Below are positions 1 through 49,369 of a DNA stretch of 64,000 nucleotides, one piece after another. Position 1 is the first letter of the stretch, and each line of letters starts with the position of its first letter. This stretch comes from the human T2T-CHM13v2.0 reference genome, Homo sapiens: the NCBI GenBank assembly GCA_009914755.4, contig CP086569.2, positions 37,728,001 through 37,792,000 of the forward strand, in the 5' to 3' direction. The position numbers were made by a program, and so were the translations under genes. A model generated the notes under the pieces. It did no database searches, was not told the DNA's origin, and saw only the letters and a list, made by a program, of their open reading frames with translations.

Positions 1-13
1 GAAGGTTCTCGAA
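1..13. promoter_or_regulatory. Exact match to a trimeric heat-shock element (HSE) consensus, GAAggTTCtcGAA (nGAAnnTTCnnGAAn). It recurs at the start of 15 of the 18 unit starts in the window (3530, 7099, 10673, 14242, 17816, 21380, 24939, 28493, 32062, 35621, 39185, 42719, 46283, 55539).
   Basis: This is a direct match of the motif to the sequence. TTC is rare on this strand, so the motif stands out. Function is not demonstrated. Confidence 0.35.
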
Positions 14-1026
14 AATAATGGAAGCAAATGGAATGGAATTGAATGGAACGGAATAGAGTCGAATGGAATTGAATGGAATGGAATGGACTAGAGTGAAATG
101 GAATCGAACCACAAGGAATGGACAGGAATAGAATGGTCTCGAATTGAATGGAATCGTATGGAATGGCATCAAACGGAATGGAATGGACAGCCACGGAATG
201 GAATGCACTCGAATGCAATGGAGTCGAAACTTATGGACTGGAATAGAATGGACTCGACTGGTACGGACTCCAATGGAATGGAATCGAATGGAAGGGATTC
301 GAACGGAATGGACTCGAAGGGAAAAGACTGCAATGGAAAGGTCTCGAATGGAATGGAAATTAATGGAATGGAATGGAATCGAATGAAATGGAGTCAAAAG
401 GAATGGAATCGAATGGCAAGAAATCAAATGTAATGGAATCGCAAGGAATTGATGTGAACGGAACGGAATGGAATGGAATCCAAAGGAATGGAATAGAATG
501 GAATGGAATCGAATGGAAAGGACTCGAATGGAAATCACTCGAATGGAATGAAATTTAATAAAATAGGATCAAATGTAATTGAATGGAATGGAAAGGAATC
601 GAAACGAAAGGAATGGAGACAGATGGAATGGAATGGAACAGAGAGCAATGGTATAGAATGGAATGGAATCATCTGGAATGGAATTGAATGGAATGGAATA
701 ATATGAAATGGAATGGAATGGAATGGAATGGAATGCCCTTGAATTAAATGGACTGGAATGGAATGGACTCGAACAGAGTGGAATGGAAAGTGTTGAGATA
801 GAATGGAATGGACTCTTTTAGAATGGTCTAGTATGCAATGCAATCGACTGGCAGGGAATCAAAAGGAATGTAATCGAATGGATTGGACTGGAATGCAATG
901 GACTCGAATAGATTGGAAACGGAATGCAAAGGAATGGAATGGAATAGTATGGAATGGAATGGAAAGGAATGGAGTGGAATAGACTAGAGTGGAATGGAAT
1001 GGACTGGAAAGCAATGGACTGGAATG

Positions 1027-1039
1027 GAACTTTCTTGAA
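1027..1039. promoter_or_regulatory. Second exact HSE consensus match per unit, GAActTTCttGAA, at unit offset ~1026 (also 4556..4568 and 8125..8137). It is degenerate in B-type units (ctttcttgGAtgg, for example about 18845) and in U7 and U10 (gGATctttcttgaa).
   Basis: Direct match of the motif to the sequence. Variation in its integrity tracks the unit subtypes. Confidence 0.3.
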
Positions 1040-2834
1040 TGGACTGGAATCAAACGGAATGGAATGCAATGCAATCAAAAGGCATGGAATAAAATAGAAT
1101 GAAAGAGAATCAAATGGAATTGAATCGAATGGAATCGAATGGATTGGAAAGGAATAGAATGGAATGGAATGGAATTGACTCAAATGGAATGGACTAGAAT
1201 GGAATGGATTCGAATGGAAGGCAAAGGAATGGAATCTATTGGAATGGACAGTAATGGAATGGAATGGAAGGGATTGGAATGGACTCGAATGGAATGGACT
1301 GCAATAGAAAGGATTCGAATGGAATGAAAAAGAATTGAATGGAATAGAACAGAATGGAATCAAATCGAATGAAATGGAATGGAATAGAAAGGAATGGAAT
1401 GAAATGGAATGGAAAGGATTCGAATGGAATGCAATCGAATGGAATGGAATCGAACGGAATGGAATAAAATGGAAGAAAACTGGCAAGAAATGGAATCGAA
1501 ATGAATGGAGTGTTATGGAACGGACTCAAAAGGAATTGAATGTAATAGAATGGAGTGGAGTGGACTCGAATATAATGAACTGGAATGGAATGAAATCACA
1601 TGGAATGGGAACGAATGGAATGGAATGGAAAGGAATGGAATCGAATGGAAAGGAATCGAATGGAAGGGAATGAAATTGGATCAACAGGAATGGAAGGGAA
1701 TAGAATAGACGGTAATGGAATGGACTCGAATAGAATGGACACGAATGCTCAAATTGAATGGACTCGAATGGAATGGAAACAAAAGGAATGTCATCGAATG
1801 GAATTGAATCGATTGGAATGAAATCGCATAGAATGGAGTGGAATCAAATGGAATTGAATCGAAAGGAAAGGAAGCGAATGGACTGAAATGAAATGGAATG
1901 GAATTGAATGGAAAGTAATGTAATGGAATAGAATGGAACGAAATTTCACGGAATGGAATCAAACTGAATGGAATCAAATCAATGGAATCAAATCAAATGG
2001 AATGGAAAGGAATTGAATGGAGTAGATTGGATTGGATGGGATTGGAATGAAATGTACTGGAAAGGACTCGAATTTCATGAAACGGAATGGAATGAATTGG
2101 AACGGAATGGACTCGAATGGAATGGAATGTCATGGAATGGCATCAAATGGAATGGAATCGAATGCAATGGAATGCTATGGAATGGAATGGAATGCATTGG
2201 AATGGAATGTCCTCTAATGGAATGGATTCGAGTGGAATGGAATCGAATATAATGGAGTCGAATGAAATGGAATTGAAAGGAATGGGATCGAATACAATGG
2301 AATATACTGGAATGTAATGTAATGAACTCGAATGTAATTGACTGGAATGGAATGTACATGAATGGAATGTAATCGAATGGAAAGTAATCCAACGGAATAG
2401 AATCTAATGCAATAAAATCGACTCAGATAGAGTAGAATGTAATGGAATGGAGTGCAGTGCAATGGAATGGAATGGAATGGAATGCAATGGAATGGAATGG
2501 AATGGAATGGGATGGAATGGTATGGAATGGATAGTAATGGACTGGAATGAAATGGACTGGAAAAGAATGGACTCAAATTGAAAGGGCTCGAAAGGAATGG
2601 AGTCAAATGGAATGGTCTGGAATGGAATGAACACGAATGTAATGCAATCCAATAGAATGGAATCGAATGGCATGGAATATAAAGAAATGGAATCAAAGAG
2701 AATGGAAACAAATGGAATGGAATTGAATGGAATGGAATTGAATGGAATGGGAACGAATGGAGTGAAATTGTATGCAGTAGAAGAGAATAGAATGGAATGC
2801 AAGCGAAAGGAAAGGAATGGATTGCAATGGAATG

Positions 2835-2877
2835 GAATTCATTGGAATGGAAGGGAATGTAGTGTAATGGACAGGCC
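2835..2877. other. The only EcoRI site (GAATTC, 2835..2840) and the only HaeIII site (GGCC, 2874..2877) in the unit, recurring once per ~3.56 kb
   Basis: Context is ggaattcattggaatggaagggaatgtagtgtaatggacaggcctgg. It is present in every complete unit at the same offset. This is consistent with the classical single-cut 3.56-kb restriction ladder of DYZ1. Confidence 0.7.
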
Positions 2878-3529
2878 TGGAATAAAGTGGAATGCTACGG
2901 TCTCGAATGGAATAAAAATGTATGGAATGGAATGCAATGAAATGGAATCGAATGTCATAGAATGTAATGGAATGCAACAAAATGGAATCCAATATCATTG
3001 ACTGGAAAGGCTGGGTGTCGAAAGGAATTGACTCCAATGGAATGGAATCGAATGGAATGGAAGTGAATAGAATCGAACTAAATCGAATGGAATGGAATTG
3101 ATAGGAACGGAATGGAAAGGAATGCAATGATTTGGCATGGAATGGAATCGAATGGCATCGAATGGAATGGAATGGAATGCAATGGAATGGAATGTATTAG
3201 AATGTAATGAACTTTAATGGAATGTACTCGAATGGATTCGACTGGAATGGAATGTTCTGGAAGTGAATGGACTCCAATGGAATGGATTCAAAAGGAATGG
3301 AATCGTACGGAATGGAATCTAATGGAATGGAATTAAATGGAAATGAATCAAATTGAATAGCACGGAATTGAATTGAATGGAATGGAATGCAATGGAATCT
3401 AATGAAACGGAAAGGAAAGGAATGGAATGGAATGGAATGGGCTGGAATGGAAAGGAATCGAAACGAATGGAATGGAATCGAACTGAAGAGACTGGAATGG
3501 AATGCACTGGAATGGAAGGGAGTGTAATG

Positions 3530-6500
3530 GAAGGTTCTCGAAAAAAATGGAATCGAATGGAATGGAATTGAATGGAACGGAATAGAGTCGAATGGAATTG
3601 AATGGAATGGAATGGACTAGAGTGAAATGGAATCGAACCACAAGGAATGGAGAGGAATAGAATGGTCTCGAATTGAATGGAATCGTATGGAATGGCATCA
3701 AACGGAATGGAATGGACAGCCACGGAATGGAATGCACTCGAATGCAATGGAGTCGAAACTAATGGACTGGAATAGAATGGACTCGACTGGTACGGACTCC
3801 AATGGAATGGAATCGAATGGAAGGGAATCGAACGGAATGGACTCGAAGGGAAAAGACTGCAATGGAAAGGTCTCGAATGGAATGGAAATTAATGGAATGG
3901 AATGGAATCGAATGAAATGGAGTCAAAAGGAATGGAATCGAATGGCAAGAAATCGAATGTAATGGAATCGCAAGGAATTGATGTGAACGGAACGGAATGG
4001 AATGGAATCCAAAGGAATGGAATAGAATGGAATGGAATCGAATGGAAAGGACTCGAATGGAAATCACTCGAATAGAATGCAATTTAATAAAATAGGATCA
4101 AATGTAATGGAATGGAATGGAAAGGAATCGAAACGAAAGGAATGGAGACAGATGGATTGGAATAGAACAGAGAGCAATGGTATAGAATGGAATGGAATCA
4201 TCTGGAATGGAATTGAATGGAATGGAATAATATGAAATGGAATGGAATGGAATGGAATGGAATGCCCTTGAATTAAATGGACTGGAATGGAATGGACTCG
4301 AACAGAGTGGAATGGAAAGTGTTGAGATAGAATGGAATGGACTCCTTTGGAATGGTGTAGTATGCAATGCAATCGACTGGCAGGGAATCAAAAGGAATGT
4401 AATCGAATGGATTGGACTGGAATGCAATGGACTCGAATAGATTGCAAACGGGATGCAAAGGAATGGAATGGAATAGTATGGAATGGAATGGAAAGGAATG
4501 GAGTGGAATAGACTAGAGTGGAATGGAATGGACTGGAAAGCAATGGACTGGAATGGAACTTTCTTGAATGGACTGGAATCAAACGGAATGGAATGCAATG
4601 CAATCAAATGGCATGGAATAAAATAGAATGAAAGAGAATCAAATGGAATTGAATCGAATGGAATCGAATGGATTGGAAAGGAATAGAATGGAATGGAATG
4701 GAATGGACTCAAATGGAATGGACTAGAATGGAATGGATTCGAATGGAAGGCAAAGGAATGGAATCTATTGGAATGGACTGTAATGGAATGGAATGGAAGG
4801 GATTGGAATGGACTCAAATAGAATGGACTGCAATAGAAAGGATTCGAATGGAATGAAAAAGAATTGAATGGAATAGAACAGAATGGAATCAAATCGAATG
4901 AAATGGAATGGAATAGAAAGGAATGGAATGAAATGGAATGGAAAGGATTCGAATGGAATGCAATCGAATGGAATGGAATCGAACGGAATGGAATAAAATG
5001 GAAGAAAACTGGCAAGAAATGGAATCGAAATGAATGGAGTGTTATGGAACGGACTCAAAAGGAATTGAATGTAATAGAATGGAGTGGAGTGGACTCGAAT
5101 ATAATGGACTGGAATGGAATGAAATCACATGGAATGGGAACGAATGGAATGGAATGGAAAGGAATGGAATCGAATGGAAAGGAATCGAATGGAAGGGAAT
5201 GAAATTGAATCAACAGGAATGGAAGGGAATAGAATAGACGGTAATGGAATGGACTCGAATAGAATGGACACGAATGCTCAAATTGAATGGACTCGAATGG
5301 AATGGAAACGAAAGGAATGTCATCGAATGGAATTGAATCGATTGGAATGAAATCGCATAGAATGGAGTGGAATCAAATGGAATTGAATCGAAAGGAAAGG
5401 AAGCGAATGGACTGAAATGAAATGGAATGGAATTGAATGGAAAGTAATGCAATGGAATAGAATGGAACGAAATTTCACGGAATGGAATCAAACTGAATGG
5501 AATCAAATCAATGGAATCTAATCAAATGGAATGGAAAGGAATTGAATGGAGTAGATTGGATTGGATGGGATTGGAATGAAATGTACTGGAAAGGACTCGA
5601 ATTTCATGAAACGGAATGGAATGAATTGGAACGGAAGGGACTCGAATGGAATGGAATGTCATGGAATGGCATCAAATGGAATGGCATCAAATGGAATGGA
5701 ATCGAATGCAATGGAATGGTATGGAATGGAATGGAATGCATTGGAATGGAATGTCCTCTAATGGAATGGATTCGAGTGGAATGGAATCGAATATAATGGA
5801 GTCGAATGAAATGGAATTGAAAGGAATGGGATCGAATACAATGGAATATACTGGAATGTAATGTAATGAACTCGAATGTAATTGACTGGAATGGAATGTA
5901 CATGAATGGAATGTAATCGAATGGAAAGTAATCCAATGGAATAGAATCTAATGCAATAAAATCGACTCAGATAGAGTAGCATGTAATGGAATGGAGTGCA
6001 GTGCAATGGAATGGAATGGAATGGAATGCAATGGAATGGAATGGAATGGAATGGAATGGAATGGAATGGGATAATATGGGATGGAATGGTATGGAATGGA
6101 TAGTAATGGACTGGAGTGAAATGGACTGGAAAGGAATGGACTCAAATTGAAAGGGCTCGAAAGGAATGGAGTCAAATGGAATGGTCTGGAATGGAATGAA
6201 CACGAATGTAATGCAATCCAATAGAATGGAATCGAATGGCATGGAATATAAAGAAATGGAATCGGAGAGAATGGAAACAAATGGAATGGAATTTAATGGA
6301 ATGGAATTGAATGGAATGGGAACGAATGGAGTGAAATTGTATGCAGTAGAAGGGAATAGAATGGAATGCAAGCAAAAGGAAAGGAATGGATTGGAATGGA
6401 ATGGAATTCATTGGAATGGAAGGGAATGTAGTGTAATGGACAGGCCTGGAATAAAGTGGAATGCTACGGTCTCGAATGGAATAAAAATGTATGGAATGGA

Positions 6501-7098
6501 ATGCAATGAAATGGAATCGAATGTCATAGAATGTAATGGAATGCAACAAAATGGAATCCAATATCATTGACTGGAAAGGCTGGGTGTCGAAAGGAATTGA
6601 CTCCAATGGAATGGAATCGAATGGAATGGAAGTGAATAGAATCGAACTAAATCGAATGGAATGGAATTGATAGGAACGGAATGGAAAGGAATGCAATGAT
6701 TTGGCATGGAATGGAATCGAATGGCATCGAATGGAATGGAATGGAATGCAATGGAATGGAATGTATTAGAATGTAATGAACTTTAATGGAATGTACTCGA
6801 ATGGATTCGACTGGAATGGAATGTTCTGGAAGTGAATGGACTCCAATGGAATGGATTCAAAAGGAATGGAATCGTACGGAATGGAATCTAATGGAATGGA
6901 ATTAAATGGAAATGAATCAAATTGAATAGCACGGAATTGAATTGAATGGAATGGAATGCAATGGAATCTAATGAAACGGAAAGGAAAGGAATGGAATGGA
7001 ATGGAATGGGCTGGAATGGAAAGGAATCGAAACGAATGGAATGGAATCGAACTGAAGAGACTGGAATGGAATGCACTGGAATGGAAGGGAGTGTAATG
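3530..7098 (+). repeat. HOR unit U2 (3569 bp)
   Basis: Anchor at 3530 and 7099. Artefact ORFs 3627..3962 and 4098..5015 are homologous to those in the other units. Confidence 0.9.
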
Positions 7099-10000
7099 GA
7101 AGGTTCTCGAAAAAAATGGAATCGAATGGAATGGAATTGAATGGAACGGAATAGAGTCGAATGGAATTGAATGGAATGGAATGGACTAGAGTGAAATGGA
7201 ATCGAACCACAAGGAATGGACAGGAATAGAATGGTCTCGAATTGAATGGAATCGTATGGAATGGCATCAAACGGAATGGAATGGACAGCCACGGAATGGA
7301 ATGCACTCGAATGCAATGGAGTCGAAACTAATGGACTGGAATAGAATGGACTCGACTGGTACGGACTCCAATGGAATGGAATCGAATGGAAGGGAATCGA
7401 ACGGAATGGACTCGAAGGGAAAAGACTGCAATGGAAAGGTCTCGAATGGAATGGAAATTAATGGAATGGAATGGAATCGAATGAAATGGAGTCAAAAGGA
7501 ATGGAATCGAATGGCAAGAAATCGAATGTAATGGAATCGCAAGGAATTGATGTGAACGGAACGGAATGGAATGGAATCCAAAGGAATGGAATAGAATGGA
7601 ATGGAATCGAATGGAAAGGACTCGAATGGCAATCACTCGAATAGAATGCAATTTAATAAAATAGGATCAAATGTAATGGAATGGAATGGAAAGGAATCGA
7701 AACGAAAGGAATGGAGACAGATGGAATGGAATGGAACAGAGAGCAATGGTATAGAATGGAATGGAATCATCTGGAATGGAATTGAATGGAATGGAATAAT
7801 ATGAAATGGAATGGAATGGAATGGAATGGAATGCCCTTGAATTAAATGGACTGGAATGGAATGGACTCGAACAGAGTGGAATGGAAAGTGTTGAGATAGA
7901 ATGGAATGGACTCCTTTGGAATGGTCTAGTATGCAATGCAATCGACTGGCAGGGAATCAAAAGGAATGTAATCGAATGGATTGGACTGGAATGCAATGGA
8001 CTCGAATAGATTGGAAACGGGATGCAAAGGAATGGAATGGAATAGTATGGAATGGAATGGAAAGGAATGGAGTGGAATAGACTAGAGTGGAATGGAATGG
8101 ACTGGAAAGCAATGGACTGGAATGGAACTTTCTTGAATGGACTGGAATCAAACGGAATGGGATGCAATGCAATCAAATGGCATGGAATAAAATAGAATGA
8201 AAGAGAATCAAATGGAATTGAATCGAATGGAATCGAATGGATTGGAAAGGAATAGAATGGAATGGAATGGAATGGACTCAAATGGAATGGACTAGAATGG
8301 AATGGATTCGAATGGAAGGCAAAGGAATGGAATCTATTGGAATGGACTGTAATGGAATGGAATGGAAGGGATTGGAATGGACTCAAATAGAATGGACTGC
8401 AATAGAAAGGATTCGAATGGAATGAAAAAGAATTGAATGGAATAGAACAGAATGGAATCAAATCGAATGAAATGGAATGGAATAGAAAGGAATGGAATGA
8501 AATGGAATGGAAAGGATTCGAATGGAATGCAATCGAATGGAATGGAATCGAACGGAATGGAATAAAATGGAAGAAAACTGGCAAGAAATGGAATCGAAAT
8601 GAATGGAGTGTTATGGAACGGACTCAAAAGGAATTGAATGTAATAGAATGGAGTGGAGTGGACTCGAATATAATGGACTGGAATGGAATGAAATCACATG
8701 GAATGGGAACGAATGGAATGGAATGGAAAGGAATGGAATCGAATGGAAAGGAATCGAATGGAAGGGAATGAAATTGAATCAACAGGAATGGAAGGGAATA
8801 GAATAGACGGTAATGGAATGGACTCGAATAGAATGGACACGAATGCTCAAATTGAATGGACTCGAATGGAATGGAAACGAAAGGAATGTCATCGAATGGA
8901 ATTGAATCGATTGCAATGAAATCGCATAGAATGGAGTGGAATCAAATGGAATTGAATCGAAAGGAAAGGAAGCGAATGGACTGAAATGAAATGGAATGGA
9001 ATTGAATGGAAAGTAATGCAATGGAATAGAATGGAACGAAATTTCACGGAATGGAATCAAACTGAATGGAATCAAATCAATGGAATCTAATCAAATGGAA
9101 TGGAAAGGAATTGAATGGAGTAGATTGGATTGGATGGGATTGGAATGAAATGTACTGGAAAGGACTCGAATTTCATGAAACGGAATGGAATGAATTGGAA
9201 CGGAATGGACTCGAATGGAATGGAATGTCATGGAATGGCATCAAATGGAATGGCATCAAATGGAATGGAATCGAATGCAATGGAATGCTATGGAATGGAA
9301 TGGAATGCATTGGAATGGAATGTCCTCTAATGGAATGGATTCGAGTGGAATGGAATCGAATATAATGGAGTCGAATGAAATGGAATTGAAAGGAATGGGA
9401 TCGAATACAATGGAATATACTGGAATGTAATGTAATGAACTCGAATGTAATTGACTGGAATGGAATGTACATGAATGGAAGGTAATCGAATGGAAAGTAA
9501 TCCAATGGAATAGAATCTAATGCAATAAAACCGACTCAGATAGAGTAGAATGTAATGGAATGGAGTGCAGTGCAATGGAATGGAATGGAATTGAATGCAA
9601 TGGAATGGAATGGAATGGAATGGAATGGAATGGAATGGAATGGAAAGGAATGGGATGGAATGGTATGGAATGGATAGTAATGGACTGGAGTGAAATGGAC
9701 TGGAAAGGAATGGACTCAAATTGAAAGGGCTCGAAAGGAATGGAGTCAAATGGAATGGTCTGGAATGGAATGAACACGAATGTAATGCAATCCAATAGAA
9801 TGGAATCGAATGGCATGGAATATAAAGAAATGGATTCGAAGAGAATGGAAACAAATGGAATGGAATTGAATGGAATGGAATTGAATGGAATGGGAACGAA
9901 TGGAGTGAAATTGTATGCAGTAGAAGGGAATAGAAAGGAATGCAAGCGAAAGGAAAGGAATGGATTGTAATGGAATGGAATTCATTGGAATGGAAGGGAA

Positions 10001-10672
10001 TGTAGTGTAATGGACAGGCCTGGAATAAAGTGGAATGCTACGGTCTCGAATGGAATAAAAATGTATGGAATGGAATGCAATGAAATGGAATCGAATGTCA
10101 TAGAATGTAATGGAATGCAACAAAATGGAATCCAATATCATTGACTGGAAAGGCTGGGTGTCGAAAGGAATTGACTCCAATGGAATGGAATCGAATGGAA
10201 TGGAAGTGAATAGAATCGAACTAAATCGAATGGAATGGAATTGATAGGAACGGAATGGAAAGGAATGCAATGATTTGGCATGGAATGGAATCGAATGGCA
10301 TCGAATGGAATGGAATGGAATGCAATGGAATGGAATATATTAGAATGTAATGAACTTTAATGGAATGTACTCGAATGGATTCGACTGGAATGGAATGTTC
10401 TGGAAGTGAATGGACTCCAATGGAATGGATTCAAAAGGAATGGAATCGTACGGAATGGAATCTAATGGAATGGAATTAAATGGAAATGAATCAAATTGAA
10501 TAGCACGGAATTGAATTGAATGGAATGGAATGCAATGGAATCTAATGAAACGGAAAGGAAAGGAATGGAATGGAATGGAATGGGCTGGAATGGAAAGGAA
10601 TCGAAACGAATGGAATGGAATCGAACTGAAGAGACTGGAATGGAATGCACTGGAATGGAAGGGAGTGTAATG
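7099..10672 (+). repeat. HOR unit U3 (3574 bp)
   Basis: Anchor at 7099 and 10673. Confidence 0.9.
9582..9655 (+). repeat. Perfect (GGAAT)n microsatellite-like run inside the unit (approximate coordinates). Its copy number varies between units and is the main source of unit-length variation.
   Basis: The perfect run varies from roughly 4 copies in U1 (about 2480 to 2510) and U12 (about 41683 to 41722) to roughly 11 copies in U3 (9582 to 9655). Confidence 0.75.
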
Positions 10673-13600
10673 GAAGGTTCTCGAAAAAAATGGAATCGAA
10701 TGGAATGGAATTGAATGGAACGGAATAGAGTCGAATGGAATTGAATGGAATGGAATGGACTAGAGTGAAATGGAATCGAACCACAAGGAATGGAGAGGAA
10801 TAGAATGGTCTCGAATTGAATGGAATCGTATGGAATGGCATCAAACGGAATGGAATGGACAGCCACGGAATGGAATGCACTCGAATGCAATGGAGTCGAA
10901 ACTAATGGACTGGAATAGAATGGACTCGACTGGTACGGACTCCAATGGAATGGAATCGAATGGAAGGGAATCGAACGGAATGGACTCGAAGGGAAAAGAC
11001 TGCAATGGAAAGGTCTCGAATGGAATGGAAATTAATGGAATGGAATGGAATCGAATGAAATGGAGTCAAAAGGAATGGAATCGAATGGCAAGAAATCGAA
11101 TGTAATGGAATCGCAAGGAATTGATGTGAACGGAACGGAATGGAATGGAATCCAAAGGAATGGAATAGAATGGAATGGAATCGAATGGAAAGGACTCGAA
11201 TGGAAATCACTCGAATAGAATGCAATTTAATAAAATAGGATCAAATGTAATGGAATGGAATGGAAAGGAATCGAAACGAAAGGAATGGAGACAGATGGAT
11301 TGGAATAGAACAGAGAGCAATGGTATAGAATGGAATGGAATCATCTGGAATGGAATTGAATGGAATGGAATAATATGAAATGGAATGGAATGGAATGGAA
11401 TGGAATGCCCTTGAATTAAATGGACTGGAATGGAATGGACTCGAACAGAGTGGAATGGAAAGTGTTGAGATAGAATGGAATGGACTCCTTTGGAATGGTC
11501 TAGTACGCAATGCAATCGACTGGCAGGGAATCAAAAGGAATGTAATCGAATGGATTGGACTGGAATGCAATGGACTCGAATAGATTGCAAACGGGATGCA
11601 AAGGAATGGAATGGAATAGTATGGAATGGAATGGAAAGGAATGGAGTGGAATAGACTAGAGTGGAATGGAATGGACTGGAAAGCAATGGACTGGAATGGA
11701 ACTTTCTTGAATGGACTGGAATCAAACGGAATGGAATGCAATGCAATCAAATGGCATGGAATAAAATAGAATGAAAGAGAATCAAATGGAATTGAATCGA
11801 ATGGAATCGAATGGATTGGAAAGGAATAGAATGGAATGGAATGGAATGGACTCAAATGGAATGGACTAGAATGGAATGGATTCGAATGGAAGGCAAAGGA
11901 ATGGAATCTATTGGAATGGACTGTAATGGAATGGAATGGAAGGGATTCGAATGGACTCGAATGGAATGGACTGCAATAGAAAGGGTTCGAATGGAATGAA
12001 AAAGAATTGAATGGAATAGAACAGAATGGAATCAAATCGAATGAAATGGAATGGAATAGAAAGGAATGGAATGAAATGGAATGGAAAGGATTCGAATGGA
12101 ATGCAATCGAATGGAATGGAATCGAACGGAATGGAATAAAATGGAAGAAAACTGGCAAGAAATGGAATCGAAATGAATGGAGTGTTATGGAACGGACTCA
12201 AAAGGAATTGAATGTAATAGAATGGAGTGGAGTGGACTCGAATATAATGGACTGGAATGGAATGAAATCACATGGAATGGGAACGAATGGAATGGAATGG
12301 AAAGGAATGGAATCGAATGGAAAGGAATCGAATGGAAGGGAATGAAATTGAATCAACAGGAATGGAAGGGAATAGAATAGACGGTAATGGAATGGACTCG
12401 AATAGAATGGACACGAATGCTCAAATTGAATGGACTCGAATGGAATGGAAACGAAAGGAATGTCATCGAATGGAATTGAATCGATTGGAATGAAATCGCA
12501 TAGAATGGAGTGGAATCAAATGGAATTGAATCGAAAGGAAAGGAAGCGAATGGACTGAAATGAAATGGAATGGAATTGAATGGAAAGTAATGCAATGGAA
12601 TAGAATGGAACGAAATTTCACGGAATGGAATCAAACTGAATGGAATCAAATCAATGGAATCAAATCAAATGGAATGGAAAGGAATTGAATGGAGTAGATT
12701 GGATTGGATGGGATTGGAATGAAATGTACTGGAAAGGACTCGAATTTCATGAAACGGAATGGAATGAATTGGAACGGAATGGACTCGAATGGAATGGAAT
12801 GTCATGGAATGGCATCAAATGGAATGGCATCAAATGGAATGGAATCGAATGCAATGGAATGCTATGGAATGGAATGGAATGCATTGGAATGGAATGTCCT
12901 CTAATGGAATGGATTCGAGTGGAATGGAATCGAATATAATGGAGTCGAACGAAATGGAATTGAAAGGAATGGGATCGAATACAATGGAATATACTGGAAT
13001 GTAATGTAATGAACTCGAATGTAATTGACTGGAATGGAAGGTATATGAATGGAATGTAATCGAATGGAAAGTAATCCAATGGAATAGAATCTAATGCAAT
13101 AAAATCGACTCAGATAGAGTAGCATGTAATGGAATGGAGTGCAGTGCAATGGAATGGAATGGAATGGAATGCAATGGAATGGAATGGAATGGAATGGAAT
13201 GGAATGGAATGGAATGGGATGGGATGGAATGGTATGGAATGGATAGTAATGGACTGGAGTGAAATGGACTGGAAAGGAATGGACTCAAATTGAAAGGGCT
13301 CGAAAGGAATGGAGTCAAATGGAATGGTCTGGAATGGAATGAACACGAATGTAATGCAATCCAATAGAATGGAATCGAATGGCATGGAATATAAAGAAAT
13401 GGAATCGGAGAGAATGGAAACAAATGGAATGGAATTGAATGGAATGGAATTGAATGGAATGGGAACGAATGGAGTGAAATTGTATGCAGTAGAAGGGAAT
13501 AGAATGGAATGCAAGCAAAAGGAAAGGAATGGATTGGAATGGAATGGAATTCATTGGAATGGAAGGGAATGTAGTGTAATGGACAGGCCTGGAATAAAGT

Positions 13601-14241
13601 GCAATGCTACGGTCTCGAATGGAATAAAAATGTATGGAATGGAATGCAATGAAATGGAATCGAATGTCATAGAATGTAATGGAATGCAACAAAATGGAAT
13701 CCAATATCATTGACTGGAAAGGCTGGGTGTCGAAAGGAATTGACTCCAATGGAATGGAATCGAATGGAATGGAAGTGAATAGAATCGAACTAAATGGAAT
13801 GGAATGGAATTGATAGGAACGGAATGGAAAGGAATGCAATGATTTGGCATGGAATGGAATCGAATGGCATCGAATGGAATGGAATGGAATGCAATGGAAT
13901 GGAAGGTATTAGAATGGAATGAACTTTAATGGAATGTACTCGAATGGATTCGACTGGAATGGAATGTTCTGGAAGTGAATGGACTCCAATGGAATGGATT
14001 CAAAAGGAATGGAATCGTACGGAATGGAATCTAATGGAATGGAATTAAATGGAAATGAATCAAATTGAATAGCACGGAATTGAATTGAATGGAATGGAAT
14101 GCAATGGAATCTAATGAAACGGAAAGGAAAGGAATGGAATGGAATGGAATGGGCTGGAATGGAAAGGAATCGAAACGAATGGAATGGAATCGAACTGAAG
14201 AGACTGGAATGGAATGCACTGGAATGGAAGGGAGTGTAATG
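10673..14241 (+). repeat. HOR unit U4 (3569 bp)
   Basis: Anchor at 10673 and 14242. Near-identical to U2. Confidence 0.9.
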
Positions 14242-17200
14242 GAAGGTTCTCGAAAAAAATGGAATCGAATGGAATGGAATTGAATGGAACGGAATAGAGT
14301 CGAATGGAATTGAATGGAATGGAATGGACTAGAGTGAAATGGAATCGAACCACAAGGAATGGACAGGAATAGAATGGTCTCGAATTGAATGGAATCGTAT
14401 GGAATGGCATCAAACGGAATGGAATGGACAGCCACGGAATGGAATGCACTCGAATGCAATGGAGTCGAAACTAATGGACTGGAATAGAATGGACTCGACT
14501 GGTACGGACTCCAATGGAATGGAATCGAATGGAAGGGAATCGAACGGAATGGACTCGAAGGGAAAAGACTGCAATGGAAAGGTCTCGAATGGAATGGAAA
14601 TTAATGGAATGGAATGGAATCGAATGAAATGGAGTCAAAAGGAATGGAATCGAATGGCAAGAAATCGAATGTAATGGAATCGCAAGGAATTGATGTGAAC
14701 GGAACGGAATGGAATGGAATCCAAAGGAATGGAATAGAATGGAATGGAATCGAATGGAAAGGACTCGAATGGCAATCACTCGAATAGAATGCAATTTAAT
14801 AAAATAGGATCAAATGTAATGGAATGGAATGGAAAGGAATCGAAACGAAAGGAATGGAGACAGATGGAATGGAATGGAACAGAGAGCAATGGTATAGAAT
14901 GGAATGGAATCATCTGGAATGGAATTGAATGGAATGGAATAATATGAAATGGAATGGAATGGAATGGAATGGAATGCCCTTGAATTAAATGGACTGGAAT
15001 GGAATGGACTCGAACAGAGTGGAATGGAAAGTGTTGAGATAGAATGGAATGGACTCCTTTGGAATGGTCTAGTATGCAATGCAATCGACTGGCAGGGAAT
15101 CAAAAGGAATGTAATCGAATGGATTGGACTGGAATGCAATGGACTCGAATAGATTGGAAACGGGATGCAAAGGAATGGAATGGAATAGTATGGAATGGAA
15201 TGGAAAGGAATGGAGTGGAATAGACTAGAGTGGAATGGAATGGACTGGAAAGCAATGGACTGGAATGGAACTTTCTTGAATGGACTGGAATCAAACGGAA
15301 TGGGATGCAATGCAATCAAATGGCATGGAATAAAATAGAATGAAAGAGAATCAAATGGAATTGAATCGAATGGAATCGAATGGATTGGAAAGGAATAGAA
15401 TGGAATGGAATGGAATGGACTCAAATGGAATGGACTAGAATGGAATGGATTCGAATGGAAGGCAAAGGAATGGAATCTATTGGAATGGACTGTAATGGAA
15501 TGGAATGGAAGGGATTGGAATGGACTCAAATAGAATGGACTGCAATAGAAAGGATTCGAATGGAATGAAAAAGAATTGAATGGAATAGAACAGAATGGAA
15601 TCAAATCGAATGAAATGGAATGGAATAGAAAGGAATGGAATGAAATGGAATGGAAAGGATTCGAATGGAATGCAATCGAATGGAATGGAATCGAACGGAA
15701 TGGAATAAAATGGAAGAAAACTGGCAAGAAATGGAATCGAAATGAATGGAGTGTTATGGAACGGACTCAAAAGGAATTGAATGTAATAGAATGGAGTGGA
15801 GTGGACTCGAATATAATGGACTGGAATGGAATGAAATCACATGGAATGGGAACGAATGGAATGGAATGGAAAGGAATGGAATCGAATGGAAAGGAATCGA
15901 ATGGAAGGGAATGAAATTGAATCAACAGGAATGGAAGGGAATAGAATAGACGGTAATGGAATGGACTCGAATAGAATGGACACGAATGCTCAAATTGAAT
16001 GGACTCGAATGGAATGGAAACGAAAGGAATGTCATCGAATGGAATTGAATCGATTGCAATGAAATCGCATAGAATGGAGTGGAATCAAATGGAATTGAAT
16101 CGAAAGGAAAGGAAGCGAATGGACTGAAATGAAATGGAATGGAATTGAATGGAAAGTAATGCAATGGAATAGAATGGAACGAAATTTCACGGAATGGAAT
16201 CAAACTGAATGGAATCAAATCAATGGAATCTAATCAAATGGAATGGAAAGGAATTGAATGGAGTAGATTGGATTGGATGGGATTGGAATGAAATGTACTG
16301 GAAAGGACTCGAATTTCATGAAACGGAATGGAATGAATTGGAACGGAATGGACTCGAATGGAATGGAATGTCATGGAATGGCATCAAATGGAATGGCATC
16401 AAATGGAATGGAATCGAATGCAATGGAATGCTATGGAATGGAATGGAATGCATTGGAATGGAATGTCCTCTAATGGAATGGATTCGAGTGGAATGGAATC
16501 GAATATAATGGAGTCGAATGAAATGGAATTGAAAGGAATGGGATCGAATACAATGGAATATACTGGAATGTAATGTAATGAACTCGAATGTAATTGACTG
16601 GAATGGAATGTACATGAATGGAAGGTAATCGAATGGAAAGTAATCCAATGGAATAGAATCTAATGCAATAAAACCGACTCAGATAGAGTAGAATGTAATG
16701 GAATGGAGTGCAGTGCAATGGAATGGAATGGAATTGAATGCAATGGAATGGAATGGAATGGAATGGAATGGAATGGAATGGAATGGAAAGGAATGGGATG
16801 GAATGGTATGGAATGGATAGTAATGGACTGGAGTGAAATGGACTGGAAAGGAATGGACTCAAATTGAAAGGGCTCGAAAGGAATGGTGTCAAATGGAATG
16901 GTCTGGAATGGAATGAACACGAATGTAATGCAGTCCAATAGAATGGAATCGAATGGCATGGAATATAAAGAAATGGATTCGAAGAGAATGGAAACAAATG
17001 GAATGGAATTGAATGGAATGGAATTGAATGGAATGGGAACGAATGGAGTGAAATTGTATGCAGTAGAAGGGAATAGAATGGAATGCAAGCGAAAGGAAAG
17101 GAATGGATTGGAATGGAATGGAATTCATTGGAATGGAAGGGAATGTAGTGTAATGGACAGGCCTGGAATAAAGTGGAATGCTACGGTCTCGAATGGAATA

Positions 17201-17815
17201 AAAATGTATGGAATGGAATGCAATGAAACGGAATCGAATGTCATAGAATGTAATGGAATGCAACAAAATGGAATCCAAAATCATTGACTGGAAAGGCTGG
17301 GTGTCGAAAGGAATTGACTCCAATGGAATGGAATCGAATGGAATGGAAGTGAATAGAATCGAACTAAATCGAATGGAATGGAATTGATAGGAACGGAATG
17401 GAAAGGAATGCAATGATTTGGCATGGAATGGAATCGAATGGCATCGAATGGAATGGAATGGAATGCAATGGAATGGAATGTATTAGAATGTAATGAACTT
17501 TAATGGAATGTACTCGAATGGATTCGACTGGAATGGAATGTTCTGGAAGTGAATGGACTCCAATGGAATGGATTCAAAAGGAATGGAATCGTACGGAATG
17601 GAATCTAATGGAATGGAATTAAATGGAAATGAATCAAATTGAATAGCACGGAATTGAATTGAATGGAATGGAATGCAATGGAATCTAATGAAACGGAAAG
17701 GAAAGGAATGGAATGGAATGGAATGGGCTGGAATGGAAAGGAATCGAAACGAATGGAATGGAATCGAACTGAAGAGACTGGAATGGAATGCACTGGAATG
17801 GAAGGGAGTGTAATG
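14242..17815 (+). repeat. HOR unit U5 (3574 bp)
   Basis: Anchor at 14242 and 17816. Near-identical to U3: the 305-aa artefact ORF 14810..15727 is identical to 7667..8584. Confidence 0.9.
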
Positions 17816-20800
17816 GAAGGTTCTCGAAAATAATGGAATCGAATGGAATGGAATTGAATGGAACGGAATAGAGTCGAATGGAATTGAATGGAATGGAATG
17901 GACTAGAGTGAAATGGAATCGAACCACAAGGAATGGACAGGAATAGAATGGTCTCGAATTGAATGGAATCGTATGGAATGGCATCAAACGGAATGGAATG
18001 GACAGCCACGGAATGGAATGCACTCGAATGCAATGGAGTCGAAACTAATGGACTGGAATAGAATGGACTCGACTGGTACGGACTCCAATGGAATGGAATC
18101 GAATGGAAGGGAATCGAACGGAATGGACTCGAAGGGAAAAGACTGCAATGGAAAGGTCTCGAATGGAATGGAAATTAATGGAATGGAATGGAATCGAATG
18201 AAATGGAGTCAAAAGGAATGGAATCGAATGGCAAGAAATCGAATGTAATGGAATCGCAAGGAATTGATGTGAACGGAACGGAATGGAATGGAATCCAAAG
18301 GAATGGAATAGAATGGAATGGAATCGAATGGAAAGGACTCGAATGGAAATCACTCGAATAGAATGCAATTTAATAAAATAGGATCAAATGTAATGGAATG
18401 GAATGGAAAGGAATCGAAACGAAAGGAATGGAGACAGATGGAATGGAATGGAACAGAGAGCAATGGTATAGAATGGAATGGAATCATCTGGAATGGAATT
18501 GAATGGAATGGAATAATATGAAATGGAATGGAATGGAATGGAATGGAATGCCCTTGAATTAAATGGACTGGAATGGAATGGACTCGAACAGAGTGGAATG
18601 GAAAGTGTTGAGATAGAATGGAATGGACTCCTTTGGAATGGTCTAGTATGCAATGCAATCGACTGTCAGGGAATCAAAAGGAATGTAATCGAATGGATTG
18701 GACTGGAATGCAATGGACTCGAATAGATTGGAAACGGAATGCAAAGGAATGGAATGGAATAGTATGGAATGGAATGGAAAGGAATGGAGTGGAATAGACT
18801 AGAGTGGAATGGAATGGACTGGAAAGCAATGGACTGGAATGGAACTTTCTTGGATGGACTGGAATCAAACGGAATGGAATGCAATGCAATCAAATGGCAT
18901 GGAATAAAATAGAATGAAAGAGAATCAAATGGAATTGAATCGAATGGAATCGAATGGATTGTAAAGGAATAGAATGGAATGGAATGGAATTGACTCAAAT
19001 GGAATGGACTAGAATGGAATGGATTCGAATGGAAGGCAAAGGAATGGAATCTATTGGAATGGACTGTAATGGAATGGAATGGAAGGGATTGGAATGGACT
19101 CGAATGGAATGGACTGCAATAGAAAGGATTCGAATGGAATGAAAAAGAATTGAATGGAATAGAACAGAATGGAATCAAATCGAATGAAATGGAATGGAAT
19201 AGAAAGGAATGGAATGAAATGGAATGGAAAGGATTCGAATGGAATGCAATCGAATGGAATGGAATCGAACGGAATGGAATAAAATGGAAGAAAACTGGCA
19301 AGAAATGGAATCGAAATGAATGGAGTGTTATGGAACGGACTCAAAAGGAATTGAATGTAATAGAATGGAGTGGAGTGGACTCGAATATAATGGACTGGAA
19401 TGGAATGAAATCACATGGAATGGGAACGAATGGAATGGAATGGAAAGGAATGGAATCGAATGGAAAGGAATCGAATGGAAGGGAATGAAATTGAATCAAC
19501 AGGAATGGAAGGGAATAGAATAGACGGTAATGGAATGGACTCGAATAGAATGGACACGAATGCTCAAATTGAATGGATTCGAATGGAATGGAAACGAAAG
19601 GAATGTCATCGAATGGAATTGAATCGATTGGAATGAAATCGCATAGAATGGAGTGGAATCAAATGGAATTGAATCGAAAGGAAAGGAAGCGAATGGACTG
19701 AAATGAAATGGAATGGAATTGAATGGAAAATAATGCAATGGAATAGAATGGAACGAAATTTCACGGAATGGAATCAAACTGAATGGAATCAAATCAATGG
19801 AATCTAATCAAATGGAATGGAAAGGAATTGAATGGAGTAGATTGGATTGGATGGGATTGGAATGAAATGTACTGGAAAGGACTCGAATTTCATGAAACGG
19901 AATGGAATGAATTGGAACGGAATGGACTCGAATGGAATGGAATGTCATGGAATGGCATCGAATGGAATGGCATCAAATGGAATGGAATCGAATGCAATGG
20001 AATGTTATGGAATGGAATGGAATGCATTGGAATGGAATGTCCTCTAATGGAATGGATTCGAGTGGAATGGAATCGAATATAATGGAGTCGAATGAAATGG
20101 AATTGAAAGGAATGGGATCGAATAGAATGGAATATACTGGAATGTAATGTAATGAACACGAATGTAATTGACTGGAATGGAATGTACATGAATGGAAGGT
20201 AATCGAATGGAAAGTAATCCAATGGAATAGAATCTAATGCAATAAAACCGAATCAGATAGAGTAGAATGTAATGGAATGGAGTGCAGTGCAATGGAATGG
20301 AATGGAATTGAATGCAATGGAATGGAATGGAATGGAATGGAATGGAATGGAATGGAATGGAATGGTATGGAATGGATAGTAATGGACTGGAGTGAAATGG
20401 ACTGGAAAGGAATGGACTCAAATTGAAAGGGCTCGAAAGGAATGGAGTCAAATGGAATGGTCTGGAATGGAATGAACACGAATGAAATGCAATCCAATAG
20501 AATGGAATCGAATGGCATGGAATATAAAGAAATGGAATCGAAGAGAATGGAAACAAATGGAATGGAATTGAATGGAATGGAATTGAATGGAATGGGAACG
20601 AATGGAGTGAAATTGTATGCAGTAGAAGGGAATAGAATGGAATGCAAGCGAAAGGAAAGGAATGGATTGGAATGGAATGGAATTCATTGGAATGGAAGGG
20701 AATGTAGTGTAATGGACAGGCCTGGAATAAAGTGGAATGCTACGGTCTCGAATGGAATAAAAATGTATGGAATGGAATGCAATGAAACGGAATCGAATGT

Positions 20801-21379
20801 CATAGAATGTAATGGAATGCAACAAAATGGAATCCAAAATCATTGACTGGAAAGGCTGGGTGTCGAAAGGAATTGACTCCAATGGAATGGAATAGAATGG
20901 AATGGAAGTGAATAGAATCGAACTAAATCGAATGGAATGGAATTGATAGGAACGGAATGGAAAGGAATGCAATGATTTGGCATGGAATGGAATCGAATGG
21001 CATCGAATGGAATGGAATGGAATGGAATGCAATGGAATGGAATGTATTAGAATGTAATGAACTTTAATGGAATGTACTCGAATGGATTCGACTGGAATGG
21101 AATGTTCTGGAAGTGAATGGACTCCAATGGAATGGATTCAAAAGGAATGGAATTGTACGGAATGGAATCTAATGGAATGGAATTAAATGGAAATGAATCA
21201 AATTGAATAGCACGGAATTGAATTGAATGGAATGGAATGCAATGGAATCTAATGAAACGGAAAGGAAAGGAATGGAATGGAATGGAATGGGCTGGAATGG
21301 AAAGGAATCGAAACGAATGGAATGGAATCGAACTGAAGAGACTGGAATGGAATGCACTGGAATGGAAGGGAGTGTAATG
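17816..21379 (+). repeat. HOR unit U6 (3564 bp), B-type (gactgTcagg allele)
   Basis: Anchor at 17816 and 21380. The diagnostic sequence gcaatcgactgtcagg is at about 18655. Confidence 0.9.
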
Positions 21380-24300: not shown

Positions 24301-24938
24301 ATGCTACGGTCTCGAATGGAATAAAAATGTATGGAATGGAATGCAATGAAATGGAATCGAATGTCATAGAATGTAATGGAATGCAACAAAATGGAATCCA
24401 ATATCATTGACTGGAAAGGCTGGGTGTCGAAAGGAATTGACTCCAATGGAATGGAATCGAATGGAATGGAAGTGAATAGAATCGAACTAAATCGAATGGA
24501 ATGGAATTGATAGGAACGGAATGGAAAGGAATGCAATGATTTGGCATGGAATGGAATCGAATGGCATCGAATGGAATGGAATGGAATGCAATGGAATGGA
24601 ATGTATTAGAATGTAATGAACTTTAATGGAATGTACTCGAATGGATTCGACTGGAATGGAATGTTCTGGAAGTGAATGGACTCCAATGGAATGGATTCAA
24701 AAGGAATGGAATCGTACGGAATGGAATCTAATGGAATGGAATTAAATGGAAATGAATCAAATTGAATAGCACGGAATTGAATTGAATGGAATGGAATGCA
24801 ATGGAATCTAATGAAACGGAAAGGAAAGGAATGGAATGGAATGGAATGGGCTGGAATGGAAAGGAATCGAAACGAATGGAATGGAATCGAACTGAAGAGA
24901 CTGGAATGGAATGCACTGGAATGGAAGGGAGTGTAATG
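21380..24938 (+). repeat. HOR unit U7 (3559 bp), A-type variant
   Basis: Anchor at 21380 and 24939. The gactggcagg allele is present, together with private variants (ggatctttcttgaatgg at about 22405). Confidence 0.9.
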
Positions 24939-49200: not shown

Positions 49201-49364
49201 GCTACGGTCTCGAATGGAATAAAAATGTATGGAATGGAATGCAATGAAACGGAATCGAATGTCATAGAATGTAATGGAATGCAACAAAATGGAATCCAAA
49301 ATCATTGACTGGAAAGGCTGGGTGTCGAAAGGAATTGACTCCAATGGAATGGAATCGAATGGAA
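46283..49364 (+). repeat. HOR unit U14, B-type, truncated at its 3' end by a deletion (about the last 470 bp is missing)
   Basis: Anchor at 46283. Homology to the other units ends at 49359 to 49369, where the sequence jumps to unit offset ~948. Confidence 0.8.
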
Positions 49365-49369
49365 TGGAA
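49359..49369 (+). other. Deletion junction removing about 1.4 kb across a unit boundary, with 11 bp of microhomology (atggaatggaa)
   Basis: The left flank matches unit offset ~3098 (compare 38700 to 38719). The right flank matches unit offset ~948 (compare 47231). The homologous ORF start spacing 48904 to 51032 is 2128 bp instead of ~3564. Confidence 0.8.

What the first reader, a model, noticed from the sequence alone, without database searches (positions are those of the whole stretch)
1..1039. Two exact heat-shock-element consensus matches per unit, one lost by point mutation in three of the four subfamily-C units
Each unit contains GAAggTTCtcGAA at offset 0 and GAActTTCttGAA at offset ~1026. 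Both fit nGAAnnTTCnnGAAn exactly. From established knowledge, HSat3 arrays (notably 9q12) are bound by HSF1 and transcribed from the GGAAT strand into nuclear-stress-body RNA after heat shock. Outside these two sites the + strand is nearly devoid of TTC, so they are the only inverted-GAA configurations in 3.56 kb. The first site is TTC to TTG in U16, U18 and U19. The second is degenerate in B-type units. Units therefore differ in their HSE complement. Whether these sites are functional on this array is inference.
Basis: partly seen in the sequence, partly recalled or inferred. Interest (0 to 1): 0.6.

Follow-up and report, generated by a model that had tools for sequence, protein, structure and literature searches.

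The report
Known heat-shock elements in Y-chromosome DYZ1 satellite
The window is the human Y-chromosome DYZ1 satellite, whose 3.56 kb repeat carries three (not two) perfect heat-shock-factor binding motifs; these motifs, and HSF1 binding to this array after heat shock, were already published in 2021.

Summary
The claim that they are the only inverted-GAA sites is wrong. A third perfect site, GAATGTTCTGGAA at unit offset about 3250-3300 (3280 in the consensus unit), is intact in all 17 copies, and two dimer-only sites also exist. The array is DYZ1 (HSat3A6, Yq12), not 9q12. It is 97-99% identical to a printed fragment of GenBank X06228, matches Yq12-specific ChIP primers and an HSat3A6-specific 24-mer, and has one EcoRI site per unit.

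Penin et al. 2021 (PMC7889540) already reported perfect heat-shock elements in the 3564 bp DYZ1 unit.

The motifs exceed composition-based nulls, but only three sites are independent. All three are intact in more than 90% of 43-45 external DYZ1 copies. Their core bases are no more conserved than the rest of the unit.

Units here carry 3, 2 or 1 perfect sites, a small new detail of unknown consequence. Verdict: real, most likely HSF1 docking sites, already known, low interest.

The parts
1..64000 (+). DYZ1 (HSat3A6, Yq12) satellite array. It holds about 18 copies of a ~3.56 kb higher-order unit of diverged GGAAT pentamers, and the + strand is the G/A-rich strand that matches the GGAAU RNA.
   Evidence: Unit boundaries and 97-98% identity between the regular units are. 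A 400 bp fragment of X06228 printed in Penin 2021 aligns at 97-99% in 17 of the 18 places it matches; the 18th, in the rearranged segment at 49171, aligns at 85%. The HSat3A6-specific 24-mer occurs about twice per unit (34 hits) and the chr9 HSat3B5 24-mer is absent. There is one EcoRI site per unit.
1..13 (+). Site S1, GAAGGTTCTCGAA, a perfect three-pentamer heat-shock element at unit offset 0.
   Evidence: Intact copies are at 1, 3530, 7099, 10673, 14242, 17816, 21380, 24939, 28493, 32062, 35621, 39185, 42719, 46283 and 55539. It is intact in 41 of 45 external DYZ1 copies.
51965..51977 (+). S1 variant GAAGGTTGTCGAA (TTC to TTG), which is no longer a perfect element. The same change occurs at 59083-59095 and 62662-62674.
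   Evidence: The same variant is present in an independent DYZ1 contig, L007, so it is a real DYZ1 subfamily allele.
1027..1039 (+). Site S2, GAACTTTCTTGAA, a perfect element at unit offset 1026.
   Evidence: It is intact at 1027, 4556, 8125, 11699, 15268, 25965 and 36652. It reads GAACTTTCTTGGA at 18842, 29519, 40211, 43745, 47309, 49437, 53006, 56580, 60124 and 63703. It reads GATCTTTCTTGAA at 22406 and 33088. It is intact in 42 of 45 external copies, and the GGA variant was seen in none of them.
3250..3262 (+). Site S3, GAATGTTCTGGAA, a perfect element at unit offset about 3250-3300 (3280 in the consensus unit), 267 bp upstream of the next S1.
   Evidence: It is intact in 17 of 17 copies: 3250, 6819, 10393, 13962, 17536, 21100, 24659, 28213, 31782, 35341, 38905, 42439, 46003, 51685, 55259, 58803 and 62382. 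The DYZ1 fragment printed in Penin 2021 Fig S4 contains a single GAAnnTTCnnGAA, at its 3' end, and that is this site. The figure's frame is not visible in the stored text, so the identification rests on this. It is intact in 39 of 43 external copies, and 2 more differ only in a spacer base.
2868..3034 (+). Region matching the published Yq12 HSF1 ChIP-qPCR amplicon. It ends 216 bp upstream of S3 and 496 bp upstream of the next S1.
   Evidence: The forward primer matches with 1 mismatch and the reverse primer exactly, 18 times each, about once per unit.
1940..1952 (+). Site S4, GAAATTTCACGGA. It is a GAAnnTTC dimer whose third pentamer is out of register (GGA), so it is a one-mismatch element.
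   Evidence: It did not vary among the 16 aligned units.
2074..2081 (+). Site S5, TTCATGAA, a TTCnnGAA dimer whose upstream GAA is one base out of register.

Best explanation
The window is part of the DYZ1 array on Yq12, the Y-specific HSat3A6 subfamily. Its canonical 3.56 kb unit carries three perfect three-pentamer heat-shock elements (S1, S2, S3) set in a sea of direct GGAAT repeats. Two of them, S3 and the next S1, lie only 267 bp apart across the unit boundary used here.

Proposed mechanism:
- After heat shock, trimeric HSF1 docks on these elements. They are repeated thousands of times across Yq12; about 20 Mb of DYZ1 divided by 3.56 kb gives roughly 5,600 units.
- The resulting local HSF1 concentration nucleates a nuclear stress body.
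- It also recruits acetyltransferases and RNA polymerase II, which transcribe the array so that the RNA carries the G-rich (+ strand here) sequence, giving (GGAAU)n SATIII RNA. That RNA retains SRSF1 and other splicing factors.

Shown in the literature: HSF1 foci on Yq12, a requirement for Yq12, ChIP enrichment within about 0.5 kb of S3 and S1, and RNA and SRSF1 foci.
Shown here: the identity of the array, the number, position and per-unit state of the sites, and their prevalence in other DYZ1 copies.
Inferred: that these particular 13-mers, rather than near-matches or the bulk repeats, are the contact points, and that a unit with fewer perfect sites loads less HSF1.

The sites most likely arose as neutral variants in the pentamer register rather than by selection.
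For: Identity as DYZ1.
Three exact GAAnnTTCnnGAA sites per canonical unit.
Excess over dinucleotide and Markov order 1-4 nulls.
TTC is the commonest of the 27 triplets that differ from GAA at all three positions in the in-register slots, 3 of 5 such slots, P about 4e-4 under independent substitution.
All three sites are the majority state in 43-45 DYZ1 copies recovered from unrelated assemblies.
Published experiments (PMC7889540): perfect heat-shock elements noted in X06228; heat-shock-dependent HSF1 ChIP-qPCR at the amplicon that maps to window 2868-3034; no HSF1 foci in a hybrid cell line lacking Yq12; SATIII RNA and SRSF1 foci on the Y.
In other HSat3 arrays, HSF1 ChIP-seq signal follows HSF1 motif density (preprint 10.1101/2024.10.22.616524).
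Heat-induced SATIII RNA is mostly G-rich (abstract of PMC2241877).
Against: - No experiment has shown HSF1 contacting these exact 13-mers. With 500 bp ChIP fragments the published amplicon cannot separate S3 from S1 or from nearby near-matches.
- HSF1 also binds a 9q12 satellite III clone whose NGAAN elements are not arranged canonically, although more weakly than a consensus element.
- Each unit has 8 further one-mismatch sites.
- The core bases are not more conserved than background. Among the window's units, 3 of 27 core columns vary against 1.06 expected. In the pooled external copies the core mismatch rate is 0.9% against a 1.1% median, and 37% of random site sets are equally or better conserved.
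- Penin et al. count four perfect elements in X06228, whereas I find three in this window and in two full-length external units. That discrepancy is unresolved.
Confidence: 0.7

Rival explanations
1. The perfect matches are incidental. In a GGAAT array, GAA recurs every 5 bp, so any variant pentamer carrying TTC in register automatically completes a perfect element. HSF1 would be recruited to Yq12 mainly by the mass of degenerate or non-canonical nGAAn arrangements and near-matches, or by DNA structure, and the three perfect 13-mers would add little.
For: - 138 of 244 in-register slots per unit are GAA, and all three in-register TTC triplets therefore have perfect flanks.
- TTC is one substitution away from in-register triplets that occur 7 times per unit (GTC x3, TAC x3, ATC x1).
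- The sites belong to a wider class of 15 short pyrimidine islands per unit.
- The cores show no excess conservation.
- HSF1 binds non-canonical 9q12 satellite III in vitro, and purified HSF1 binds several chromosomes that carry satellite II or III.
Against: - In vitro binding to the non-canonical repeat needed about four-fold more HSF1 than a consensus element.
- HSF1 ChIP-seq in HSat3 follows the density of canonical motifs, not the uniformly distributed GGAAT content.
- Yq12 competes with or outcompetes 9q12 for limiting HSF1, which Penin et al. tentatively attribute to more heat-shock elements.
- TTC is over-represented among triple-substituted slots.
Confidence: 0.25
2. The motifs are inert in vivo. 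Yq12 heterochromatin would keep them inaccessible, and the Y-linked HSF1 focus would depend on something other than DYZ1, for example the interspersed DYZ2 (HSat1B) blocks.
For: The hybrid-cell deletion removes all of Yq12, both DYZ1 and DYZ2, so it does not single out DYZ1.
Against: - ChIP-qPCR with DYZ1-specific primers is heat-shock dependent and male specific.
- The RNA foci are detected with a GGAAU-repeat probe.
- Recombinant HSF1 binds protein-stripped metaphase chromosomes directly: the 9q12 region in Jolly 2002 and in HT1080 spreads, and, as cited there from Eymery et al. 2010, several satellite II/III chromosomes including the Y.
Confidence: 0.05

Closest known systems
Heat-shock elements of the DYZ1 (Yq12) satellite III unit, GenBank X06228, described by Penin et al. 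2021 (Chromosoma 130:53; PMC7889540)
   Same: It is the same array family: 97-99% identity to the printed X06228 fragment, and the same ChIP primers match. The only GAAnnTTCnnGAA in their Fig S4 fragment is identical to S3 here. The proposed role is the same: HSF1 docking, nuclear stress body formation and SATIII transcription on the Y.
   Different: They report four perfect elements in X06228, whereas I find three per canonical unit, plus two dimer-only sites and eight one-mismatch sites. They did not tabulate variation between units. Here units carry 3, 2 or 1 perfect sites because of the S1 TTG and the S2 GGA and GAT alleles.
9q12 satellite III (HSat3B5; clone pHuR98), the classical primary nuclear stress body locus
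   Same: It is a GGAAT-derived satellite that HSF1 binds after heat shock and that is transcribed into G-rich SATIII RNA, which seeds nuclear stress bodies.
   Different: It is a different HSat3 subfamily on a different chromosome; the HSat3B5 marker 24-mer is absent from the window. The pHuR98 repeat has NGAAN elements in a non-canonical arrangement and binds HSF1 more weakly than a consensus element. DYZ1 carries canonical three-pentamer elements.
Promoter heat-shock elements of HSP genes, for example the proximal element of HSPA1A
   Same: The core architecture is the same: three or more contiguous inverted nGAAn pentamers recognised by trimeric HSF1.
   Different: In DYZ1 no defined promoter or transcription start site is known nearby. 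The sites are three-pentamer minimal elements with no fourth or fifth inverted unit. They occur thousands of times in heterochromatin rather than once upstream of a gene.
Heat-shock elements in other repeats: human subtelomeres upstream of TERRA, Alu subfamilies, and Chironomus telomeric repeats
   Same: HSF binding sites embedded in repetitive non-coding DNA give stress-induced non-coding transcription.
   Different: The repeat families are unrelated. Only in satellite III does the repeat unit itself (GGAAT) supply two thirds of the motif.

Membership tests
DYZ1 / HSat3A6 (Yq12 Y-specific satellite III) | Tandem higher-order unit of about 3.56 kb (3564 bp in X06228; about 3.6 kb in T2T-Y) built from diverged GGAAT/CATTC pentamers | tested here: met
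   Regular unit lengths are 3529-3579 bp and identity to unit 1 is 97-98%. The pentamer composition is visible.
DYZ1 / HSat3A6 (Yq12 Y-specific satellite III) | Sequence identity to the reference DYZ1 clone X06228 | tested here: met
   Only the 400 bp fragment printed in Penin 2021 Fig S4 was available. It aligns end to end at 97.3-99.0% in 17 of the 18 places it matches; the 18th, in the rearranged segment at 49171, aligns at 85%. The full X06228 record could not be retrieved.
DYZ1 / HSat3A6 (Yq12 Y-specific satellite III) | Presence of subfamily-specific marker k-mers or primers and absence of markers of other subfamilies | tested here: met
   The HSat3A6 24-mer from Altemose 2014 Table 1 occurs 34 times, and the HSat3B5 (chr9) 24-mer occurs 0 times. 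The Yq12-specific ChIP primers each match 18 times.
DYZ1 / HSat3A6 (Yq12 Y-specific satellite III) | One EcoRI site per unit, giving the classical 3.56 kb EcoRI ladder (this feature is from my own knowledge of the DYZ1 literature) | tested here: met
   GAATTC occurs 18 times, once per unit.
Canonical heat-shock element (HSF1 trimer binding site) | At least three contiguous nGAAn pentamers in alternating orientation (nGAAnnTTCnnGAAn) | tested here: met
   S1, S2 and S3 are exact matches. No fourth inverted pentamer flanks any of them (sequence).
Canonical heat-shock element (HSF1 trimer binding site) | Occupancy by HSF1 in vivo after heat shock | not testable with these tools
   Published ChIP-qPCR is positive for an amplicon 216 bp from S3 and 496 bp from S1, with about 500 bp chromatin fragments. 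The resolution is too low to assign the signal to a given 13-mer.
Canonical heat-shock element (HSF1 trimer binding site) | Direct, sequence-specific binding that is lost when the GAA or TTC cores are mutated, and heat-inducible transcription that depends on the site | not testable with these tools
   I found no gel-shift, footprint or reporter data for DYZ1 sites in the literature searches.
Canonical heat-shock element (HSF1 trimer binding site) | Evolutionary constraint on the core bases (supportive, not strictly defining) | tested here: not met
   Among 16 units, 3 of 27 core columns are polymorphic against 1.06 expected. In 52 external loci, 37% of random site sets are as conserved or more. 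This is weak evidence, because individual copies in a multi-megabase array are not expected to be under selection.
   The HSat3B5 marker 24-mer is absent on both strands, and all positive markers point to HSat3A6.

The most novel reading that the evidence does not exclude
The number of perfect heat-shock elements per DYZ1 unit is not uniform. In this 64 kb it falls from 3 to 1 per unit along the array, through alleles that are rare or absent in other DYZ1 copies. Yq12 blocks, and therefore different men's Y chromosomes, could differ several-fold in HSF1 loading capacity. That would help explain why some male cell lines nucleate their primary stress body on the Y and others on chromosome 9.
Probability: 0.15. 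Interest if true: 0.45.

Novelty: already known. Interest (0 to 1): 0.15.

Why it matters
Stress-induced transcription of satellite III is the best-studied case of heterochromatin being switched on by a sequence-specific factor. Where HSF1 actually lands inside these arrays was long unclear. For the Y array the answer, canonical elements embedded in the repeat unit, is already in the literature, so the finding mainly rediscovers it.

The added value here is modest. It consists of a correct site count and map, a per-unit table of intact and mutated sites, natural loss-of-site alleles (S1 TTG; S2 GGA and GAT) that could serve as built-in controls for allele-resolved ChIP on complete Y assemblies, and evidence that the sites are not under detectable constraint.

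Tried and rejected
1. Reading the array as a 9q12-type stress-body locus. Rejected: every marker says DYZ1/HSat3A6.
2. Treating 39 matches as 39 observations. Rejected: they are copies of three sites, so the statistics were redone per consensus unit.
3. Markov models of order 5 and 6 as a register-aware null. They reproduce 2.4-3.5 sites per unit, but only because they memorise a 3.56 kb training sequence, so they are uninformative.
4. Looking for purifying selection on the core bases within the window and in 52 external loci. No signal.
5. The idea that in-register TTC arose by micro-inversion of a GAA-centred purine run. For example, CTTTCTT is the reverse complement of AAGAAAG. I 'restored' each of the 15 pyrimidine runs and looked for the restored core elsewhere in the unit. 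Only one restored core (at 3242, not a heat-shock element) recurs even once, so the idea is neither supported nor excluded.
6. Finding the fourth 'perfect' element reported for X06228. It is not found in the window, in the printed 400 bp fragment, or in two full-length external units. The full X06228 record was not available.
7. A true HSF1 position weight matrix scan was not run, because no matrix was available offline and I did not want to invent one. I counted mismatches to the 9 core bases instead.
8. Searches for allele- or unit-resolved HSF1 ChIP-seq on the Y found nothing beyond Penin 2021.

Full report
**What is in the sequence**

The whole 64 kb window is a strongly strand-asymmetric GGAAT-type satellite, with GC about 0.39 and GC skew about +0.56 throughout. 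Aligning the first 3529 bases against the window gives 14 regular head-to-tail units of 3529-3574 bp. These are followed by a rearranged 5682 bp segment (46283-51964), three more regular units and a partial one. Identity to unit 1 is 97-98% for the regular units. Substitution divergence between units is 0.1-1.5%, and the units from 51965 onward form their own cluster.

**Checking the observation**

An exact scan for GAAnnTTCnnGAA finds 39 matches on the + strand. There are none of the TTCnnGAAnnTTC type. The matches fall into three positional classes, not two.

| Site | Sequence | Unit offset | State in the window |
|---|---|---|---|
| S2 | GAACTTTCTTGAA | 1026 | Intact in 7 of 19 copies; third pentamer GAA to GGA in ten; first pentamer GAA to GAT in two |

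S3 lies only 267 bp upstream of the next S1. In addition, the units that cover those offsets have a GAAnnTTC dimer followed by GGA (consensus position 1940) and a TTCnnGAA dimer whose upstream GAA is one base out of register (position 2074).

The consensus unit has 12 TTC. Three are the perfect sites and two are the dimers. Six are of the GGATTC type, out of register and usually followed by GA. One is the EcoRI site.

So the coordinates, sequences and the TTG variant are confirmed. The claim that these are the only inverted-GAA configurations is wrong.

The number of perfect sites per unit in this window is:
- 3 in units 1-5, 8 and 11;
- 2 in units 6, 7, 9, 10, 12 and 13, in the rearranged segment, and in the unit at 55539;
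- 1 in the units at 51965 and 59083.

**Is it more than chance?**

- Dinucleotide shuffles of the window expect 1.1 matches against 39 observed. The 39 are copies of three sites, so I redid the test on the 3559 bp consensus unit.
- Markov models of order 1-3 expect 0.05-0.10 sites per unit. Order 4 expects 0.52, with P(>=3) = 0.01. Orders 5-6 expect 2.4-3.5, but they simply memorise the unit.
- The key structural point is that GAA recurs every 5 bp. The unit has 244 slots of the form GAAnnXYZnnGAA, and 138 of them hold GAA. Any TTC in register therefore completes a perfect element.
- Of the five slots whose triplet differs from GAA at all three positions, three are TTC. This gives P about 4e-4 if substitutions were independent.
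- However, TTC is one step away from in-register triplets present seven times per unit (GTC x3, TAC x3, ATC x1).
- The sites also belong to a broader set of 15 short pyrimidine islands per unit.

My reading is that there is a real excess over composition and a suggestive but not compelling excess once the pentamer register is taken into account.

**What the array is**

It is DYZ1, the Y-specific HSat3A6 subfamily on Yq12.
- Penin et al. 2021 print a 400 bp stretch of the reference DYZ1 clone (GenBank X06228) in their Fig S4. It aligns end to end at 97.3-99.0% in 17 of the 18 places it matches, at offset 2864-3263 in the first unit. The 18th place, at 49171 in the rearranged segment, aligns at 85%.
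- Their Yq12-specific ChIP primers match 18 times each, about once per unit. The reverse primer matches exactly and the forward primer has one mismatch.
- The HSat3A6-specific 24-mer of Altemose et al. 2014 occurs 34 times. The chr9 HSat3B5 24-mer does not occur.
- There is one EcoRI site per unit.
- T2T-Y describes DYZ1 as a Y-specific HSat3 with a unit of about 3.6 kb covering more than 20 Mb.

**What is already known**

Penin et al. 2021 (PMC7889540) searched X06228 for heat-shock elements and reported 'four perfect HSEs' in its 3564 bp. They showed the following:
- heat-shock-dependent, male-specific HSF1 ChIP-qPCR enrichment with the amplicon that maps to window 2868-3034;
- HSF1 foci that co-localise with Yq12 and are lost in a hybrid cell line lacking Yq12;
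- a single SATIII RNA focus in the nuclei of several male cell types, and SRSF1 foci that co-localise with the Y-linked HSF1 focus.

The frame in their figure is not visible in the stored text, so this identification is by elimination.

With about 500 bp chromatin fragments, the amplicon is 216 bp from S3 and 496 bp from S1. It cannot tell the two apart.

A 2024-25 preprint from the Altemose laboratory reports that HSF1 motifs cluster in sub-regions of HSat3 arrays and that HSF1 ChIP-seq follows motif density. It used female MCF7 cells, so the Y was not covered.

Jolly et al. 2002 showed that recombinant HSF1 also binds a 9q12 satellite III clone whose NGAAN elements are not canonically arranged. 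That binding needed about four-fold more protein than a consensus element.

**Related sequences from elsewhere**

An HSat3A6 marker 24-mer that lies between S3 and S1 pulled out 10 contigs from bacterial and archaeal genome assemblies and 67 stretches from metagenome assemblies. These are presumably human male DNA. T2T-Y reports this kind of contamination.

I called orthologous sites where the flanks were at least 92% identical:

| Site | Intact in external copies | Window variant seen externally |
|---|---|---|
| S1 | 41 of 45 | TTG variant once, in L007 |
| S2 | 42 of 45 | GGA variant never |
| S3 | 39 of 43, plus 2 with only a spacer change | none in the window |

Two full-length units (L001 and L010) carry exactly the three sites.

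Short-read assemblies collapse repeats towards the majority sequence. This therefore shows that three perfect elements are the majority DYZ1 state, and that the S2 GGA allele abundant in this window is a local variant. I could not find the fourth element reported for X06228.

**Constraint**

- Among 16 aligned units, 3.9% of columns carry substitutions. Three of the 27 core columns do, against 1.06 expected (P for at least 3 is 0.09).
- In the pooled external copies the core mismatch rate is 0.9% against a background median of 1.1%. Of random site sets, 37% are at least as conserved.

There is no sign that selection maintains individual sites. This is expected for any one copy among thousands, and it fits a neutral origin.

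**Most likely mechanism**

Heat-activated HSF1 trimers dock on these three-pentamer elements. Their repetition across Yq12, roughly 5,600 units by inference, concentrates HSF1, nucleates a stress body, and drives RNA polymerase II transcription into G-rich SATIII RNA that has the sequence of the + strand here.

Array-level binding and transcription are published. The assignment to these 13-mers is inference. The main rival is that the mass of near-matches and non-canonical nGAAn repeats does most of the work. An origin by chance and a biochemical function are compatible.

**Verdict**

The only new element is the unit-by-unit variation in site complement, whose consequence is unknown. Interest is low.

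Noticed in passing
window 46283-51964 (identical copies at about 47205-49340 and 49333-51468): One 'unit' is 5682 bp long. After consensus position about 3092 the sequence jumps back to about 933, giving a 2128 bp tandem duplication whose two copies are 100% identical over about 2.1 kb. This is either a very recent unequal exchange or an assembly artefact. The duplicated part contains S2 (GGA allele), S4, S5, the EcoRI site and the ChIP amplicon, but not S3 or S1.
   Followed up: partly
L001-L010 (for example BMRF01000076.1 Actinomadura cremea, 3637 bp; CAYVXY010000078.1, 3604 bp): Ten contigs in public bacterial and archaeal genome assemblies are human DYZ1. Two are complete collapsed units at 99.5-99.9% identity to the window consensus. 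This is evidently human male DNA contamination of the kind the T2T-Y paper reported. A further 67 stretches were found in metagenome assemblies.
   Followed up: partly
L007 (NZ_QZCH01000177.1) versus window 51965, 59083 and 62662: The S1 TTC-to-TTG allele of the late units also occurs in an unrelated DYZ1 contig, so it is a shared DYZ1 subfamily variant rather than a private mutation or an error. The S2 GGA allele, present in 10 of 19 copies in the window, was absent from all 45 external copies.
   Followed up: yes
window 2835, 2874 and 2678, and the same offsets in every unit: Exactly one EcoRI site (GAATTC), one HaeIII/StuI site (AGGCCT) and one TATAAA occur per unit, all within about 200 bp of each other and just upstream of or inside the published ChIP amplicon. 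Whether the TATAAA has any promoter role is unknown.
   Followed up: no
consensus unit positions 131, 336, 666, 2315, 2365, 2640 and 3250: These are seven of the eight one-mismatch heat-shock-element-like sites per unit; the eighth is S4 at 1940. Their middle triplets are GTC (x3), TAC (x3) and ATC (x1). One of them lies 30 bp upstream of S3. They might add weak HSF1 affinity and they blur the idea of a fixed 'site complement'.
   Followed up: partly
window 1-3529: The first unit is 3529 bp, 25-50 bp shorter than the other regular units (3554-3579 bp apart from one of 3534 bp). It is also the most divergent of the early units, at about 1.2% from all the others.
   Followed up: no
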